Assembly: GCA_050309605.1 (NCBI GenBank)
Contig: JBNRMN010000021.1
Location: 1 to 64,000 of the forward strand
From: Anaerohalosphaeraceae bacterium
GTDB taxonomy: Bacteria; Planctomycetota; Phycisphaerae; Sedimentisphaerales; Anaerohalosphaeraceae
Direction of reading: 5' to 3'
DNA length: 64,000 bases
The notes beneath the pieces are model-generated. The model saw only the letters and a program-made list of their open reading frames with translations. It was not told where the DNA came from and ran no database searches. Position 1 is the first letter of the stretch; the number at the start of each line of letters is the position of its first letter. This document shows, one piece after another, positions 9,134-45,818 of this stretch. The translations under genes were made by a program, and so were the position numbers.

Positions 9134-9294
9134 CGTTTGTATTGGCGATGGGCAAAGGAGCAAGACAGCGGCGGGTGCGTGCAGGGATGGACAGGAGGCA
9201 GTCTGCGGGGGCGAATTTCAGAGATCCGATTTCAGATTTCTCAATCAGCGTGTTGGCGGTTTTTCGGCTTCGGGCATTGCAGTGCTCCGCGCAT

Positions 9295-10388: not shown

Positions 10389-10657
10389 ACGCTTTCCTTT
10401 CTAAAAAAACATTTTGTATCCGATTTTGCTATAATACACAAGAAATTAATTGTCCCCTTTCCATTTTATAATGTCAAGGAACTAATTGTATCTGCGCCGG
10501 CTCACGGCCGGTGTCGGGGCGTTTTTTGTTTAGGTAGTAGTGTCAACGATTCAATATGCCGAGTTATTGCGTGTTTTACAGACAAATTGACAAAATCTCA
10601 GCGATTGGGTCGGCGGTGATTTTTTTGTGTTCGCCCAATACGCCGCCGCGATTTGGT

Positions 10658-11701
10658 TTAATCCTCAAACAGCGAGGCGTCATCGGGTTCTTTTCGCGTG
10701 CATTTGAGTTTCATCTTCAGGTGGTCGCAGGCGGCGCGGGTGATTTCACGGCCGCGTTTGGTACGGCGGACAAAGCCCACTTGCAGCAGATACGGCTCGA
10801 CGACATCTTCGAGGGTGTCGCGTTCTTCGCCGAGCGTAGCGGCGATGGCCTCGATGCCGGCCGGGCCGCCGTCATAGACCTCGATCAGGGCGCGCAGAAA
10901 CGCCCGATCCAAATCGTCCAGTCCCAGCGTATCAATGCGTTCCATCGTCAGGGCGTTGTTGACGACCTCCTCGGTCAGGCGTCCGGAGCCTTTGACCTGG
11001 GCGTAGTCGCGGACGCGCTTGAGCAGGCGGTTGCCAATGCGCGGTGTACCGCGCGAGCGGGCGGCGATCATCTCCAGTGTGCCGTCGTCATAGCTTAGCT
11101 CCAGCAGTCCGGCCGAGCGGCGGATGATCTCGGTCAATTCGCCGATGGTATAAAAATTGAGATGATACAGCATCCCGAAACGACTTCGCAGCGGCGAGCT
11201 AAGCAGGCCGGCCCGTGTGGTCGCGCCGATCAGCGTAAAACGCTTGAGCGGAAAGTTGATCGTTTTGGCGTGCATCCCGCTGTCCACGGTGTAATCGACC
11301 TTGAAATCCTCCATGGCCGGATAGATGAACTCCTCAACCGGTGCGCTGAGTCGATGAATCTCGTCGATGAACAGGATGTCGCCGGTACTGACGTTGCTCA
11401 GCATCCCCATGACGTCGCCCTGTTTGGTCAGGGCCGGGCCGGAACTGACGCGGATCGCGGCGTTCATCTCATTGGCGATGACATTGGCCAGGGTCGTCTT
11501 GCCCAGCCCCGGCGGGCCGTAGAACAGGATATGCTCCAGCGGTTCGCCGCGCCGGCGGGCGGCGGTAATCGCAATGGACAGCTTTTCCTTGATGTTCGTC
11601 TGCCCGATGCACTCGGCCAGCCGCCTGGGCCGAAGGGCATTATTGAACACCTCTTCCTTGTCGCCCCGACTGTCTGCACTTAATACTCGATCTATTGCCA
11701 T
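10658..11701 (-). CDS. ruvB: Holliday junction branch migration helicase RuvB
   Basis: LRP, GPPGLGKTT, FIDEIHRL, GATTRAG, SRGTPRI, EPYLLQ. Confidence 0.97.
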   Translation of the reverse strand: MAIDRVLSADSRGDKEEVFNNALRPRRLAECIGQTNIKEKLSIAITAARRRGEPLEHILFYGPPGLGKTTLANVIANEMNAAIRVSSGPALTKQGDVMGMLSNVSTGDILFIDEIHRLSAPVEEFIYPAMEDFKVDYTVDSGMHAKTINFPLKRFTLIGATTRAGLLSSPLRSRFGMLYHLNFYTIGELTEIIRRSAGLLELSYDDGTLEMIAARSRGTPRIGNRLLKRVRDYAQVKGSGRLTEEVVNNALTMERIDTLGLDDLDRAFLRALIEVYDGGPAGIEAIAATLGEERDTLEDVVEPYLLQVGFVRRTKRGREITRAACDHLKMKLKCTRKEPDDASLFED

Positions 11702-11713
11702 AGTTTTTCTTCA

Positions 11714-11747
11714 GACACAGATTTTCACAGATTTTCACAGATTTTTA
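11714..11747. repeat. Inverted-repeat end A of the GxxExxY cassette (3 x CACAGATTTT)
   Basis: GACACAGATTTTCACAGATTTTCACAGATTTTTA; 30/34 match to the reverse complement of 12140-12173. Confidence 0.9.
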
Positions 11748-11759
11748 TTTTAATGAGGG

Positions 11760-12140
11760 TCAAAGGACTCTCCGTTTGACGACGACACGTTTCCCAAAAT
11801 TGATCAATAAGCCAATTCGAATCCCCGTTGCTTTCAAATAATTAACCAACTGCACCTCATGCGATGCGCACACATCACTGACTGCCTTGAGTTCAACAAT
11901 CACTTTTCCATCTACAATAAAATCGGGAATGTACTCCCCGACAAGATGCCCGCGATAGTGAACTGTCAAGGGTGACTCCTGCTGAAAAGGAATTCCCAGT
12001 TCGCGCAGTTCCACCACAAGGGCATTTTGATAGACCTTTTCAAGGAATCCCGCCCCAAGTTCATTATGAACTCGATAACAACAGCCAATTACCTGTTCGG
12101 TCAGTTCTTTATATAAATAATCAGCGTTCATAATATTCAT
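11760..12140 (-). CDS. GxxExxY protein (PD-(D/E)XK nuclease superfamily)
   Basis: VHNELGAGFLEKVY motif, PDFIVDGKVIVELK, QLVNYLKATG, GLLINFG; more AT-rich than its neighbours. Confidence 0.95.
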   Translation of the reverse strand: MNIMNADYLYKELTEQVIGCCYRVHNELGAGFLEKVYQNALVVELRELGIPFQQESPLTVHYRGHLVGEYIPDFIVDGKVIVELKAVSDVCASHEVQLVNYLKATGIRIGLLINFGKRVVVKRRVL

Positions 12141-12173
12141 AAAAATCAGTGAAAATCAGTGTTAATCTGTGTC
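12140..12173. repeat. Inverted-repeat end B of the GxxExxY cassette
   Basis: TAAAAATCAGTGAAAATCAGTGTTAATCTGTGTC. Confidence 0.9.
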
Positions 12174-12181
12174 AAAAAAAA

Positions 12182-12808
12182 CTACGCTTCTATGCCTTGT
12201 TTGACGCGATAGACTAACGGGATAAGCGCTTCGGCGGTGTTGATCTCCGGGTGTTTTCGGCAGGTCAGCTCAATCAGTTCCATTGCTTCGGCGCGTTTTT
12301 CACCCCAGGCGATCAGGATTTCGAGGGCTTCGGTCTGGAACAGACTGAACGCCGAGCGGCTTTGCGGCTCGGCGGCCTCATGGGCGTAGCGTTTGAGTTT
12401 ACCGCTCAGCTCGGCGGCGATCATCTGGGCCATTTTTTTGCCGACACCCGGCAGTGTGGCCAGCAGTTTTTCGTCGCCGCTTTCGATGGCCGAGGCGATC
12501 CGTTCGATGGGCAGGGCCAGCGACTTGAGGGCTTTTTTGATGCCCATCCCTTTGACGGTGGTGTAAATCGCAAAAAAATCCCGCTCACCGCGATTGAGAA
12601 ACCCCACCATCCGCGGAATGAGGTTGCCGCCGCCCAGCGTCCCTTCGTAATACTCGAACGTGCAGAGCGTGACCGAACGGCCGATCTGTCCGCTTAATTG
12701 CACGACTGCGTAGCCCGGCAGCATCAGTTCATAGCAGACCGCGCCGGCCTGCACCCAGGCGCTGTCTTCATCCAGACTTATCAAGTTGCCTTCAATTTGT
12801 GCGATCAT
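12182..12808 (-). CDS. ruvA: Holliday junction DNA-binding protein RuvA
   Basis: MIAQIEG, HhH motifs VKGMGIKKAL and LPGVGKKMA; lies between ruvC and ruvB. Confidence 0.93.
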   Translation of the reverse strand: MIAQIEGNLISLDEDSAWVQAGAVCYELMLPGYAVVQLSGQIGRSVTLCTFEYYEGTLGGGNLIPRMVGFLNRGERDFFAIYTTVKGMGIKKALKSLALPIERIASAIESGDEKLLATLPGVGKKMAQMIAAELSGKLKRYAHEAAEPQSRSAFSLFQTEALEILIAWGEKRAEAMELIELTCRKHPEINTAEALIPLVYRVKQGIEA

Positions 12809-12817
12809 AGCTTCATT

Positions 12818-13315
12818 TTAGAGCAAATGAACAGGATTTACACGATTTTTTTCGTTGGCACAGCACAGGGCCGCGGCGATGGCATCGGCCACGTCCGGCG
12901 GTTCCGGCGGTTCGGACAGACCCAGCACCGTCTGAATCGCCCGCTGCATCTGTCCTTTGGACGCCCGCCCGTTGCCGGTGAGCGACTTTTTGATGCGTGT
13001 GGCCGAGAAACTCCGCACGACGGCGCCGGCCTGGGCGGCCTGCTGTAAGATCACGCCGCGGGCGTGGCCCATCAGGATGGCCGTGCGCGGATGTTTGTAG
13101 TGGGCGTATAACTGTTCGACGGCCACCACATCGGGCTGATGCGTTTGCAGCAGGGTTTGAATGTCCTTGGCGATCTGGTTGAGCCGCGCCTCGAGCGTTG
13201 CTGTGCCATCGGTGCGAAAGATGCCCGCCTCCAGCAGCGTCTGGCGGAGCAGTTCCTTCTTGACCACCGCATAGCCGCACACCTGTAAACCGGGATCGAT
13301 GCCTAATAAGATCAT
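12818..13315 (-). CDS. ruvC: Holliday junction resolvase RuvC
   Basis: ILLGIDPG, VAVEQLY, GHARGVI, GNGRASK, DVADAIAAALC. Confidence 0.96.
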   Translation of the reverse strand: MILLGIDPGLQVCGYAVVKKELLRQTLLEAGIFRTDGTATLEARLNQIAKDIQTLLQTHQPDVVAVEQLYAHYKHPRTAILMGHARGVILQQAAQAGAVVRSFSATRIKKSLTGNGRASKGQMQRAIQTVLGLSEPPEPPDVADAIAAALCCANEKNRVNPVHLL

Positions 13316-13323
13316 TCTGTTAT

Positions 13324-13887
13324 TCAAAGATAGATGCCACCATTCACATATTTCTGATGCAATCGAATATAATTGTTGCCGAATTGTATAACTGTAATAT
13401 CCTTGTAATCAACGGCACGTTTTCCACTTACCCACCTGCCTTTTGCATCGAAATGTCGAATTGAAACACTGTTTTTATTGATCCGCTTTATCGGCCCAAT
13501 TAAGAAAACTCCTGTGTCGGGGCGTTCATCTTCAACAATTACGAACTGTTTATGCTTCTTGAGTGAACCCAAGACCGTCATGTAATCAGACAGATCAATA
13601 GTGAAGGGTGGCACTATAGCGTTTCCAAGCAGTCCCTCTTTCTGCAATATTTTCTTACAATAATCATTACGATGTGTCGCCTCTATTTTTTCAATATGCG
13701 TTCGGTCAACCACTCTCCAGCCATCGATGAAGAAATCATATTCATGTGCAATTAAAACAAAACGACGAGAATAGGCTACAATAAAGCCCTGCAGTCGATA
13801 CTGATCGACTTCAGGATTCCGAACTATCGTAACAAGTTTTTGTTTGTCACAATAACTGCTAATTTTCTTTTCCAAGGACTTGTTCAT
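13324..13887 (-). CDS. Hypothetical protein, AT-rich, with two similar small beta-rich halves
   Basis: Long ORF in operon orientation; GAGGGG upstream of MNKSLEK; composition differs from the flanks. Confidence 0.7.
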   Translation of the reverse strand: MNKSLEKKISSYCDKQKLVTIVRNPEVDQYRLQGFIVAYSRRFVLIAHEYDFFIDGWRVVDRTHIEKIEATHRNDYCKKILQKEGLLGNAIVPPFTIDLSDYMTVLGSLKKHKQFVIVEDERPDTGVFLIGPIKRINKNSVSIRHFDAKGRWVSGKRAVDYKDITVIQFGNNYIRLHQKYVNGGIYL

Positions 13888-13944
13888 TTGCTTCTTACCC
13901 CTCTGCTCAGTCTTGTCAAAACTATCCACTCATGAGTGCTGAAC

Positions 13945-15438
<1,494 letters not shown>

Positions 15439-16406: not shown

Positions 16407-17291
16407 TTAGTGCTCTTGAACAAAGATGCAGTTTTCATCCAGCCGCAGCATCGTGCCGTAGCCGTCTCGCTCGGGGCGGGTGAACAAGTTTTCAATCTGG
16501 GCCGGCCTTGGATCAAAGCGGCGAATGTTGCGCAGGTCAATCTGAGCCGAGGATTCTTCCAGCCCCTGATCAATCGTCATCAGACGAATTGTTGCGGGTA
16601 CTGTCAGGTCGGCATCGACGTTTTGGTAGTTTGCCAATTCCGTCGCTGCGGCGACCTGCGCATTGCGGTCATAGTACTCGATGCGCCGCACGCGATAGCC
16701 ACAGCCATCGACATACAGCCGTTTAATCGGTCGTCCGTTGTCGCGCTGCGTCAGCAAGTCCCAGCCGTCGCGGTGAAACAGCTCCCAGCTCGAATCGATT
16801 TCGACCAGCCCGAGCGCCTCGGCCAGATTGGCCGGATTGATCATCAATACGTCGGCGCAGCGTTGGGCCAGTCGGCTCGTGCCGTACCAGTAAGTGTCCA
16901 GCTCCGGCTTGATCCGCAGCCAGAATTCGGATTCATTGGCGCCGAAGCGAATCTCGCCGAACTTGTCCCCGCGGAAATAAACCCGTTCCGGCGGCATAAA
17001 CGCCGCACGGGCGTCGAAACTCTCTCGACGGGTGCGGTTGTTTTGGTCTTTCCATTCCATCACACATCGCGCCGTGGCCTGAAGCGGGGCCAGTTGTTCT
17101 CGCTGGACGGCCAGTGCCAATGCGGCCTCTTCAATGGTGCGCTTGCCGGCGCACAGCGGCAACGGTTCGGGCATTTGCGGCGGCTGACAGCCGCCGGTCA
17201 GCAGCAGGATCATCGCAGCAAGGGCCATGCCCGACGTGCAGAGGCCGCGTTGAACATTTGAAATTCGAGATTTGAAATCAGACATTTTCAT
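16407..17291 (-). CDS. Hypothetical lipoprotein (start may be 17228)
   Basis: Lipobox LLTGGC after a hydrophobic stretch; beta-rich body. Confidence 0.7.
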   Translation of the reverse strand: MKMSDFKSRISNVQRGLCTSGMALAAMILLLTGGCQPPQMPEPLPLCAGKRTIEEAALALAVQREQLAPLQATARCVMEWKDQNNRTRRESFDARAAFMPPERVYFRGDKFGEIRFGANESEFWLRIKPELDTYWYGTSRLAQRCADVLMINPANLAEALGLVEIDSSWELFHRDGWDLLTQRDNGRPIKRLYVDGCGYRVRRIEYYDRNAQVAAATELANYQNVDADLTVPATIRLMTIDQGLEESSAQIDLRNIRRFDPRPAQIENLFTRPERDGYGTMLRLDENCIFVQEH

Positions 17292-44017: not shown

Positions 44018-44038
44018 AATTATTATCCTTTTATCATG

Positions 44039-44091
44039 GACACAGATTCACACTGATTTCGGCTTGCTGTTCCTGTTTAATCCTCTGTGTC
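44039..44091. repeat. ORF-less copy of the GxxExxY cassette end
   Basis: GACACAGATTCACACTGATTT (20/21 to the reverse complement of 12153-12173), closed by TCTGTGTC. Confidence 0.75.
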
Positions 44092-44123
44092 GAAAAAACG
44101 AACCTCTGTTGACTCGATGTATT

Positions 44124-45772: not shown

Positions 45773-45818
45773 CAAAGACTCTTCATTCAAAATTCAAATT
45801 CAAGAATTAAGAATCGGG

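What the first reader, a model, noticed from the sequence alone, without database searches (positions are those of the whole stretch)
11701..12184. GxxExxY nuclease cassette framed by long tandem-unit inverted repeats, splitting ruvA from ruvB
Seen: the AT-rich GxxExxY ORF is bracketed by 34-bp inverted repeats (11714-11747 and 12140-12173, 30/34 identity), each made of three 10-mer CAC(A/T)GATTTT-type units. Pairing extends outward (TAGTTTTT / AAAAACTA) to the ruvA stop and ruvB start codons, so the transcript could fold a long stem that loops out the nuclease ORF and juxtaposes ruvA and ruvB. No transposase or target duplication is visible. Known: ruvA and ruvB are normally adjacent; GxxExxY proteins are PD-(D/E)XK-fold with no established function. 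Inference: a minimal mobile element (nuclease plus hairpin ends) that inserts at gene junctions, perhaps neutralised at the RNA level like an intervening sequence.
Basis: partly seen in the sequence, partly recalled or inferred. Interest (0 to 1): 0.8.

Follow-up and report, generated by a model that had tools for sequence, protein, structure and literature searches.

The report
Nuclease gene cassette splitting ruvA–ruvB
A small nuclease gene framed by two mirror-image arrays of a 10-base motif has been inserted between the DNA-repair genes ruvA and ruvB, and the same framed design surrounds this gene family in many bacteria and archaea, which points to a widespread, undescribed selfish DNA element.

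Summary
The GxxExxY ORF (11760-12140, minus strand; PF13366/TIGR04256, E 2e-43) is framed by a 43-nt inverted repeat, 84% complementary. Each arm holds three 10-nt CAC(A/T)GATT units.

It is an insertion. In 9 relatives with RuvB 74-79% identical, the ruvA|ruvB spacer is 3-153 nt and holds no GxxExxY gene. In the window it is 480 nt.

The frame is a hallmark of the family. Of 80 GxxExxY genes from about 20 phyla, archaea included, 55 have such a flanking repeat, against 20 of 1041 control ORFs. In 8 more the right arm lies beyond a second gene, often a candidate phage-defence gene.

The arms share a conserved motif (T-rich, GAC, AC[N]GATT at 9-10 nt spacing). The motif type follows the protein tree across phyla. 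Thirty-five gene-less hairpins carry the same motif.

Tests for RNA pairing found no signal: no wobble bias and no covariation specific to an element.

Best reading: a selfish cassette whose PD-(D/E)XK nuclease recognises its own arms. Its design matches the 23S rRNA intervening sequences. The mechanism is inferred, not shown. I found no description of it in print.

The parts
12139..12181 (-). 5' arm of the cassette. On the coding strand it reads T8, GAC, then three 10-nt units (CACAGATT, CACTGATT, CACTGATT; units at 12142-12171). It runs from just after the ruvA stop to the GxxExxY start codon.
11760..12140 (-). GxxExxY protein gene, 126 aa, PD-(D/E)XK fold. G31, F32, Y37, D73, E83 and K85 are invariant among 40 aligned homologues, and E34 is kept in at least 90%. 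G+C is 43%.
   Evidence: Pfam PF13366 E 2e-43; TIGR04256 E 1.7e-43; alignment A1; AF2 model pLDDT 94; Foldseek hits to Cas4, lambda exonuclease and Hjc-type nucleases.
11706..11748 (-). 3' arm of the cassette. It holds three exact units at 11716-11745, ends in GTC on the coding strand, and is followed by 12 nt before the ruvB ATG.
11701..11717 (.). Outer extension of the repeat. It pairs with 12168-12184 and overlaps the ruvB start codon; its partner overlaps the ruvA stop codon.
   Evidence: pair I5, 82% complementary.
12182..12808 (-). ruvA, the host gene upstream of the insertion.
   Evidence: TIGR00084 E 9e-30.
10658..11701 (-). ruvB, the host gene downstream of the insertion.
   Evidence: NF000868 E 1e-139.
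12829..12851 (-). Solo right-arm-like array (AAAAAATCGTGTAAATCCTGTTC) at the ruvC|ruvA junction. It encodes the non-conserved C-terminal tail of ruvC and is probably a remnant of another element.
   Evidence: A relative, L039, has a complete gene-less hairpin at this same junction.
44037..44098 (-). Decayed gene-less hairpin of the same motif type. The right arm reads GACACAGATT, CACACTGATT when reverse-complemented. It lies between two co-oriented ORFs.
   Evidence: it folds weakly (-10.6 kcal/mol).

Best explanation
The feature is a roughly 480-bp selfish cassette inserted into the short ruvA|ruvB spacer. It consists of a GxxExxY PD-(D/E)XK nuclease gene bounded by two inverted arrays of a conserved 9-10-nt motif (T-run, GAC, AC[N]GATT x3).

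Shown here:
- It is an insertion relative to 9 relatives.
- The arm-gene-arm design is the norm for this gene family across bacteria and archaea.
- Gene-less hairpins of the same motif type occur nearby, and extra cargo genes sit inside the same arms.
- Gene and arms travel together across phyla.

Inferred:
- The arms are arrays of binding sites on double-stranded DNA for the encoded nuclease, which probably acts as a dimer.
- The nuclease uses them to recognise and cut or nick the element ends. This would promote spread or retention of the element, for example by break-induced copying into cognate hairpins or AT-rich sites next to stop codons.
- The gene is expressed as a passenger of the host operon.
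- Pairing of the arms in the transcript is a by-product that RNase III may nevertheless cut.
For: Insertion. The ruvA|ruvB spacers in 9 relatives are 3, about 29, 32, 34, 71, 80, 106, 107 and 153 nt, and none holds a GxxExxY gene. The window's spacer is 480 nt.

Family-wide frame. 55 of 80 GxxExxY genes have a flanking repeat scoring at least 30, and 59 of 80 beat all 100 shuffles. Among control ORFs it is 20 of 1041. In 8 more genes the right arm lies beyond a second gene.

Motif. 300 motif arrays occur in 1.29 Mb, against 14 in reversed sequence, and 212 of them lie outside ORFs that cover 86% of the bases. Positions that the search pattern did not fix are also conserved: G, A and C before the first unit at 80-95%, and T after GAT at 75-90%.

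Linkage of protein and motif. Motif type changes 13 times on the protein tree (shuffle mean 29.7, minimum 24). One clade of 17 rows, 15 of them carrying the ACAGGATT type, spans 9 phyla. Paralogues within one genome have different arm motifs (L003, L043, L078). 30 of 31 classifiable gene-less hairpins share the motif type of the resident gene.

Binding sites rather than a stem. Variable positions of the units are not kept complementary within an element. There is no sense-strand wobble bias: 31 G.U against 44 A.C.

Active enzyme. D73, E83 and K85 are invariant and E34 is kept in at least 90% of sequences. The fold model is confident.

Dimer hint. 31 of the 150 best representatives are two-domain fusions.

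Foreign character. The gene's G+C is below its flanks in 78 of 80 cases, by 10 points on average.
Against: No nuclease activity, DNA binding or transposition has been shown for any member of the family.

No target duplication or other footprint of a known transposition chemistry was seen.

A sister cassette sits immediately upstream of cysS in 11 relatives. Its protein is as conserved as RuvA and RuvC (72.9% against 69.9% and 71.0%). That fits a retained, perhaps useful, gene better than an actively jumping one.

A similar unit (GACAGAT) frames an unrelated four-helix-bundle ORF in the Coxiella IVS, and a related unit frames a PF05635 gene at L071:945-1325. The motif therefore need not be read by the GxxExxY protein.

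Agreement between protein tree and motif type could reflect physical linkage alone.

10 of 80 genes have no detectable arm and 7 have only one. Two of 6 plasmid-borne homologues are flanked by direct rather than inverted repeats.
Confidence: 0.5

Rival explanations
1. An intervening-sequence-like element that works at the RNA level. The arms exist to form a long stem in the operon transcript. RNase III cuts the stem, releasing or silencing the cassette RNA and limiting harm to ruvA and ruvB expression. On this view the motif is a structural module, not a protein-binding site.
For: The predicted stem closes the ORF (z -5.2; duplex -49.9 kcal/mol). The stem base pairs the ruvA stop codon with the ruvB start codon. 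The Coxiella 23S rRNA IVS has the same design, and RNase III excision was shown there in vitro (passages of PMC4990558). Overall, 1791 of 2032 arm positions are Watson-Crick paired. Mismatched positions are A-rich in both arms on the sense strand (66 A-A against 22 T-T), which is a strand-specific signal.
Against: There is no excess of G.U over A.C mismatches on the sense strand (31 against 44). An element's left arm matches its own right arm no better than that of another element in the same locus (14/34 against 28/62, and 49/82 against 108/179). The sequence of the units, not only their pairing, is conserved from archaea to bacteria. Bacteria are not known to religate mRNA after RNase III cleavage (recalled), so cutting would separate ruvA from ruvB rather than join them.
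Confidence: 0.2
2. A retained host gene. GxxExxY is a useful nuclease, for instance in defence or repair, or as the keeper of a small slot for defence genes. It is inherited vertically, and the arms act as operator or regulatory sites.
For: A cassette lies immediately upstream of cysS in 11 relatives. Among 9 of them that also carry ruvC-ruvA-ruvB, its protein is conserved at a housekeeping rate. Only 3 of 85 genes show internal stops. 5 of 10 second genes inside the arms match PADLOC defence-candidate models: PDC-S11, PDC-S18 and PD-Lambda-3_B/HEPN.
Against: The ruvA|ruvB copy is present in the window and absent in 9 relatives. The closest homologues are scattered over more than 15 phyla and both domains. 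Gene-less hairpins are present in some genomes and absent from the same junction in others. G+C is consistently lower than the host's. GxxExxY itself matches no PADLOC model.
Confidence: 0.15
3. A repeat family of REP type that a host factor binds. The arms and hairpins are generic intergenic repeats, and GxxExxY is merely one frequent cargo that landed between them.
For: Hairpins occur without genes (35 cases). Other genes are also framed by the arms: GIY-YIG-like, HEPN-like and PF05635. Relatives carry other tandem-unit palindromes at the same junctions.
Against: 29 of the 32 arm pairs spaced 301-600 nt enclose a GxxExxY gene. Motif type follows the GxxExxY tree rather than the host phylum and differs between paralogues in one genome. 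No host factor common to archaea and bacteria is evident.
Confidence: 0.1

Closest known systems
23S rRNA intervening sequences carrying an S23p / four-helix-bundle ORF (PF05635), as in Coxiella and Leptospira
   Same: Both are about 430-480 nt elements holding one small ORF. Both have terminal inverted repeats that form a stem of about 28-43 bp, and three short tandem units (GACAGAT there, GACAC[A/T]GATT here) just upstream of the start codon. Both are regarded as selfish with an unknown mobility mechanism (passages of PMC4990558). A PF05635 gene with its own tandem-unit repeat lies in locus L071.
   Different: This element sits between protein-coding genes, not in rRNA helix 45. Its ORF is a PD-(D/E)XK nuclease, not a four-helix bundle, and it is under purifying selection rather than decaying. 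RNase III processing has not been tested here.
REPIN-RAYT systems
   Same: In both, a single nuclease-type gene is flanked by inverted repeats that also occur as gene-less hairpins dispersed in the genome. Both show long vertical persistence together with hairpins of matching type.
   Different: RAYTs are HUH/Y1 enzymes of the IS200 type. Here the enzyme is PD-(D/E)XK, the arms are arrays of 9-10-nt units rather than single REP palindromes, and the cassette crosses phyla.
MITEs and their autonomous inverted-repeat transposons (recalled)
   Same: Both have terminal inverted repeats with internal repeated sites, gene-less short derivatives, nested insertions, and presence/absence differences at orthologous sites.
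   Different: There is no DDE, serine, tyrosine or HUH transposase and no visible target duplication. The only encoded enzyme is a 126-aa nuclease.
Free-standing homing endonuclease genes (recalled)
   Same: Both are small nuclease genes wedged between conserved, co-oriented housekeeping genes, AT-rich relative to the host and patchy in distribution.
   Different: Homing endonuclease genes are not framed by repeat arrays and target one specific allele. These cassettes occupy many unrelated junctions: ruvA|ruvB, upstream of cysS, fabD|fabG and radA|FAD-protein.

Membership tests
GxxExxY protein family (TIGR04256 / Pfam PF13366 PDDEXK_3) | Score above the curated cut-off of the family models over the full length | tested here: met
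   PF13366 147.9 bits against a cut-off of 22. TIGR04256 147.6 bits against a cut-off of 35.
GxxExxY protein family (TIGR04256 / Pfam PF13366 PDDEXK_3) | GxxExxY motif and the PD-(D/E)XK catalytic residues | tested here: met
   The motif is G31-F-L-E34-K-V-Y37. D73, E83 and K85 are invariant in 40 sequences. The model has a PD-(D/E)XK-type fold.
23S rRNA intervening sequence (IVS) elements | A small ORF enclosed by terminal inverted repeats that form a long stem | tested here: met
   The comparison rests on passages of PMC4990558.
23S rRNA intervening sequence (IVS) elements | Tandem short repeats in the 5' arm directly upstream of the ORF start | tested here: met
   Three 10-nt units end 4 nt before the ATG. 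Coxiella has three GACAGAT heptamers.
23S rRNA intervening sequence (IVS) elements | Location inside a 23S rRNA helix | tested here: not met
   The element lies between ruvA and ruvB. No rRNA match was found in 10500-14000.
23S rRNA intervening sequence (IVS) elements | ORF of the S23p / PF05635 family | tested here: not met
   The ORF matches PF13366 only.
23S rRNA intervening sequence (IVS) elements | Excision from the transcript by RNase III | not testable with these tools
   Only a predicted stem is available. The covariation tests were negative.
Inverted-repeat DNA transposon / MITE | Terminal inverted repeats at the limits of the inserted segment | tested here: met
   The arms lie 8 and 12 nt from the flanking stop and start codons, and the emptiest site in a relative is 3 nt.
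Inverted-repeat DNA transposon / MITE | An encoded transposase of a known class | tested here: not met
   Only PF13366 was found in the cassette, and no transposase family in the window ORFs scanned.
Inverted-repeat DNA transposon / MITE | Target-site duplication | tested here: inconclusive
   None was seen by eye. The flanks T-run/GAC ... GTC/A-run read as an extension of the repeat. Occupied and empty sites are too diverged to align base by base.
REPIN-RAYT | A gene flanked by inverted repeats that also occur as gene-less hairpins of matching type | tested here: met
   35 hairpins were found, and 30 of 31 classifiable ones match the resident gene's type.
REPIN-RAYT | Y1/HUH (IS200-like) enzyme | tested here: not met
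   The enzyme is PF13366, not PF01797.
Integron gene cassette | A single attC site 3' of the ORF and an IntI integrase with attI nearby | tested here: not met
   The arms lie on both sides of the ORF. No integrase family was found among the window ORFs scanned.

The most novel reading that the evidence does not exclude
GxxExxY genes and their arms form a new, very widespread class of autonomous prokaryotic mobile element. A 126-aa PD-(D/E)XK nuclease would be its only mobility enzyme. It would recognise arrays of a 9-10-nt motif at both ends, populate genomes with MITE-like hairpins, insert next to stop codons inside operons, and ferry single-gene defence candidates between phyla and domains. 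The long-unexplained ORF-bearing rRNA intervening sequences would then be relatives or non-autonomous passengers of the same system.
Probability: 0.3. Interest if true: 0.9.

Novelty: new variant of a known kind. Interest (0 to 1): 0.8.

Why it matters
GxxExxY / PDDEXK_3 is a very large family: 20034 clusters at 50% identity match at E up to 1e-3. The superfamily survey lists its function as unknown (PMC3424549, table row seen).

A conserved repeat frame, gene-less derivatives, empty sites and cross-phylum linkage of gene and frame together give the family a testable role: a nuclease that acts on its own arms.

The shared design also ties the family to the rRNA intervening sequences. In the passages read from the 2016 Coxiella paper, their origin and mobility are described as unclear and only hypotheses are listed.

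If the nuclease proves to be the mobility enzyme, this would be a new transposition or homing chemistry. It would also be a compact, sequence-programmed DNA-recognition module.

The cassettes sit inside core operons (ruv, fab, upstream of cysS). They are therefore relevant to genome annotation and to how operons tolerate insertions.

Tried and rejected
- Rfam: scanning 10500-14000 at E up to 1 gave only one chance-level hit, P17 at E 0.91.
- PDB by sequence: no match at E up to 0.01.
- Plasmid DNA search with the whole cassette: no match.
- Phage records: one distant homologue, 38% identical, listed under two accessions of Halogranum tailed virus 1. Phage carriage is therefore not the explanation.
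- Promoter and terminator scans: counts were at the level of the shuffles.
- Co-orientation with both neighbours: only weakly enriched, 46 of 77 against 532 of 1053 control triplets. I do not use it as evidence.
- RNA-level selection: the wobble test and the covariation test were both negative.
- Target duplication: none seen.
- More four-helix-bundle (PF05635) cassettes: a tblastn search of the loci found only the query itself.
- Literature: 'GxxExxY' (3 papers, none on flanks); 'PF13366/PDDEXK_3' (2 papers); six motif strings (0 papers); IVS-protein terms (33 papers, listing only); PDDEXK plus inverted repeats (127 papers, first 15 listed). None describes this frame. Paywalled papers and supplements were not searched.
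- Homodimer prediction: complex prediction never accepted the job because its queue was full, so dimerisation was not tested that way.
The context of the 79-80% identical metagenomic homologues therefore stayed unchecked.
Full report
**What is in the window.** Five genes lie in a row on the minus strand: cysS (13945-15438), an AT-rich 201-aa ORF (13324-13929), ruvC (12818-13327), ruvA (12182-12808) and ruvB (10658-11701). A 126-aa ORF at 11760-12140 sits between ruvA and ruvB. That ORF matches Pfam PF13366 (PDDEXK_3, E 2e-43) and NCBIfam TIGR04256 'GxxExxY protein' (E 1.7e-43). It is 43% G+C, and its neighbours are 58-60%.

**The inverted repeat.** The repeat finder reports arms 11706-11748 and 12139-12181, 43 nt and 84% complementary. 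It also reports three exact CACAGATTTT units at 11716-11745 and matching units on the other side (TRF). Pairing extends to the ruvA stop and the ruvB start (pair I5).

A motif-free flank score for the repeat is 58. The mean of 100 dinucleotide shuffles is 17.3, and none reaches 58.

**It is an insertion.** Ten of them come from relatives that also carry ruvC and ruvA after cysS, and 9 of these also show ruvB, 74-79% identical to the window's. In those 9 the ruvA|ruvB spacer is 3, about 29 (start inferred), 32, 34, 71, 80, 106, 107 and 153 nt, and none contains a GxxExxY gene. The window's spacer is 480 nt. All of it is accounted for by eight T, arm, gene, arm and 12 nt.

Several of the relatives' spacers hold other small palindromes or tandem-unit repeats, so this junction is a habitual landing place. 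At the neighbouring ruvC|ruvA junction one relative (L039) has a complete gene-less hairpin, and a close relative of it (L056, host proteins 85% identical) has none. The window has a solo arm there, which encodes the tail of ruvC.

**The frame is a property of the gene family.** I scored upstream against downstream flanks of all 80 analysable GxxExxY genes, the window's own included; 5 more were too close to a contig end.
- 55 of 80 score at least 30, and 59 of 80 beat all 100 shuffles.
- The same score on 1041 other ORFs of the same loci reaches 30 in only 20. Many of those 20 are framed by the same kind of repeat units. Some are second cargo genes, and some are host genes lying between two elements.
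- Of the 25 GxxExxY genes scoring below 30, 8 have a left arm with the right arm beyond a second gene, 7 have one arm only, and 10 have none detectable.
- Among 6 more distant homologues on annotated plasmids, 2 have clear tandem-unit inverted repeats (units of the CACAGAGGA type), 2 have weak ones, and 2 have direct repeats instead.
- These plasmid copies split fabD|fabG, radA|FAD-dependent protein and ade|mannose-1-phosphate guanylyltransferase.

**The arms share a motif.** Without any prior pattern, the arms found are built from units such as GACACGGATT-AACACGGATT, GACAGGATT-AACAGGATT or GACACAGATT-AACACTGATT.

A simple pattern (two or more AC-N1-2-GAT units, 1-4 nt apart) finds 300 arrays in the 1.29 Mb held, against 14 in the reversed sequences. 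Of these, 212 lie outside ORFs although ORFs cover 86% of the bases. Positions that the pattern does not fix are also conserved. There is a T-run, then G/A/C at 80-95% before the first unit, and T after GAT at 75-90%. Unit spacing is 9 nt (234 cases) or 10 nt (132 cases).

Of 98 adjacent convergent arm pairs:
- 35 are gene-less hairpins with a loop of 100 nt or less;
- 32 have an inner distance of 301-600 nt, and 29 of these enclose a GxxExxY gene.

The window itself holds a decayed hairpin at 44037-44098.

In 32 cassettes with a co-oriented upstream ORF, the first unit starts a median of 10 nt after that gene's stop codon. The stop codon often lies inside the terminus, as TAGAC, TGAC or TAAGAC.

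**Gene and arms travel together.** The 80 nearest homologues (49-62% identical) come from about 20 phyla, including methanogen-related archaea.

On a maximum-likelihood tree of 82 proteins, motif type (four states) needs 13 changes; the shuffle mean is 29.7 and the minimum 24. Host phylum (17 states) needs 24 changes. One clade of 17 rows, 15 of them with the ACAGGATT type, spans 9 phyla.

Paralogues in one genome have different arm motifs (L003, L043, L078). 30 of 31 classifiable gene-less hairpins share the type of the resident gene. Gene G+C is below that of the flanks in 78 of 80 cases, by 10 points on average.

The window's protein is sister (SH-aLRT 91) to a clade of 15 planctomycete proteins. 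At least 12 of the 15 are the copies that lie in the cysS-upstream slot. The window's protein is nevertheless more diverged from these copies than its host proteins are from theirs: 59% identity, against 65-76% for RuvA, RuvC and RuvB. It also carries another motif variant. It is therefore a distinct copy at a new site, not the orthologue.

**Stability and cargo.** In 11 relatives a GxxExxY cassette lies immediately upstream of cysS. The hisC-hisB-ispF genes upstream of it were verified in 3 of them. Among 9 of these relatives, the cassette's protein is as conserved as RuvA and RuvC (72.9% against 69.9% and 71.0%). The gene is thus under purifying selection and can persist for a long time.

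Between the gene and its right arm these relatives carry different AT-rich second genes. Of the 10 tested, 5 match PADLOC defence-candidate models: PDC-S11 (E 8.5e-73), PDC-S18 and PD-Lambda-3_B/HEPN. By eye, others look like GIY-YIG or PD-(D/E)XK proteins. Some of these second genes have their own inner arms, which indicates nested insertion.

**The protein.** Forty aligned homologues keep G29, G31, F32, K35, Y37, N39, D73, E83, K85, E95, Q97, N100 and Y101 invariant. This includes a complete D...ExK set, and E34 of the GxxExxY motif is kept in at least 90% of them.

The AF2 model is confident (pLDDT 94). Its best structural matches are Cas4 SSO0001 (E 1e-4, TM 0.57) and other PD-(D/E)XK nucleases, including lambda exonuclease, RecE and Hjc. 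No solved structure is a close relative.

The family has 20034 clusters at 50% identity with E up to 1e-3. Of the 150 best, 31 are two-domain fusions. In the 3 that I read, one half keeps the catalytic motif and the other lacks it, by eye. This suggests a dimeric enzyme that can work with one active site.

**DNA sites or RNA stem?** The transcript could form a -49.9 kcal/mol duplex between the arms, and the whole region folds with z -5.2. Two tests for selection on pairing were negative.
- Among 241 mismatched arm positions in 55 cassettes, 31 are G.U on the sense strand and 44 are A.C, which would be G.U on the antisense strand.
- At the variable position inside the units, left and right arms of one element agree only slightly more often than shuffled partners (0.485 against 0.375, and 0.642 against 0.562). 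They agree no better than with the right arm of another element in the same locus (14/34 against 28/62, and 49/82 against 108/179).

The arms therefore behave like two inverted arrays of a degenerate recognition motif rather than a maintained helix. One strand-specific signal remains: mismatched positions, many of them in the spacers between units, are A-rich in both arms on the sense strand (66 A-A against 22 T-T). This would fit a need to be transcribed through.

**Comparison with what is known.** The closest described design is the ORF-bearing intervening sequence of 23S rRNA. In the Coxiella paper (passages read) the 428-nt IVS has a small ORF, a 28-bp terminal repeat stem and three tandem GACAGAT heptamers just upstream of the start codon. 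RNase III cuts it in vitro. Its origin is described there as unclear, and an older proposal that the ORF serves mobility is cited.

The present cassette has the same anatomy and a similar unit. It differs in lying in an mRNA operon, in encoding a different protein and in being well conserved. It also resembles REPIN-RAYT pairs and MITE/transposon pairs (both recalled from memory) but lacks their enzymes.

My searches of the held library found no description of the frame around GxxExxY genes. The PD-(D/E)XK survey lists the family's function as unknown and its phylogeny as showing multiple transfers.

**Verdict.** The insertion and the family-wide cassette architecture are shown. That the nuclease reads and cuts its own arms to spread or persist is the most likely mechanism, but it is inferred. 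The RNA-level reading, the retained-host-gene reading and the host-factor reading remain open at lower odds.

Noticed in passing
window 13324-13929 (minus strand): An AT-rich (39% G+C) 201-aa ORF lies between cysS and ruvC and overlaps the ruvC start by 4 nt. In relatives, cysS and ruvC abut or overlap. It has no Pfam, NCBIfam or PADLOC match, the Atlas returns only hypothetical clusters, and it has no flanking repeat. It is probably a second, separate insertion in the same operon.
   Followed up: partly
window 12829-12851: A solo right-arm-like array at the ruvC|ruvA junction supplies the non-conserved C-terminal tail and the stop of ruvC. A relative (L039:12415-12538) has a full gene-less hairpin at this junction, whose TTAGAC terminus contains the ruvC stop codon.
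   Followed up: yes
window 44037-44098: A decayed gene-less hairpin of the same CAC(A/T)GATT type lies between two co-oriented ORFs of a pilus/secretion-like gene cluster.
   Followed up: partly
window 17254-17287, 45785-45814, 9215-9240: Other short AT-rich tandem repeats (units such as ATTTGAAAT, ATTCAAA, ATTTCAG) sit at or near gene junctions. They resemble the tandem-unit junction repeats seen in relatives.
   Followed up: no
L005:9635-9741, L039:13169-13274, L051:12437-12468, L015:14576-14728: The ruvA|ruvB spacers of relatives hold other repeat families. One has inverted arrays of CAAAAT-type units around a G+C-rich hairpin. Another has AATAGT-type tandem units. The junction is a hotspot for several kinds of small palindromic elements.
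   Followed up: partly
L005:5833-6843, L041:10381-11385, L056:10852-11436, L016:7349-8443, L021:10550-11146: The second genes inside the same arms as GxxExxY match PADLOC defence-candidate models (PDC-S18, PDC-S11, PD-Lambda-3_B/Aga_HEPN). The second gene differs between close relatives, so the slot turns over quickly.
   Followed up: partly
L071:945-1325: A PF05635 '23S rRNA intervening sequence protein' gene outside any rRNA is framed by its own tandem-unit inverted repeat (units like TAAGATTGT).
   Followed up: partly
cysS in loci L029, L041 and L055 against L005, L007, L015, L039, L051, L056 and the window: CysS identities fall into two groups: about 46% between groups, and about 70-86% within them. 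RuvA, RuvB and RuvC vary smoothly. This suggests replacement of cysS by a distant version right next to the cassette slot.
   Followed up: no
P0121, P0122, P0124 and 28 other proteins listed: These are two-domain GxxExxY fusions of about 250-280 aa. In the three that I read, only one half keeps the D...ExK motif.
   Followed up: partly
L081:1400-1960 and L085:1400-2020: In a Fusobacteria plasmid and a Prevotella plasmid, the GxxExxY gene is flanked by direct repeats of about 50 nt containing arm-like units, not by inverted ones.
   Followed up: no
L043:13390-14121 and L074:12695-13225: An IS200-like Y1 transposase ORF is flanked by a 32-nt inverted repeat, an arrangement that looks RAYT-like. 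A 176-aa ORF of unknown family is flanked by a 73-nt inverted repeat of a different kind.
   Followed up: no
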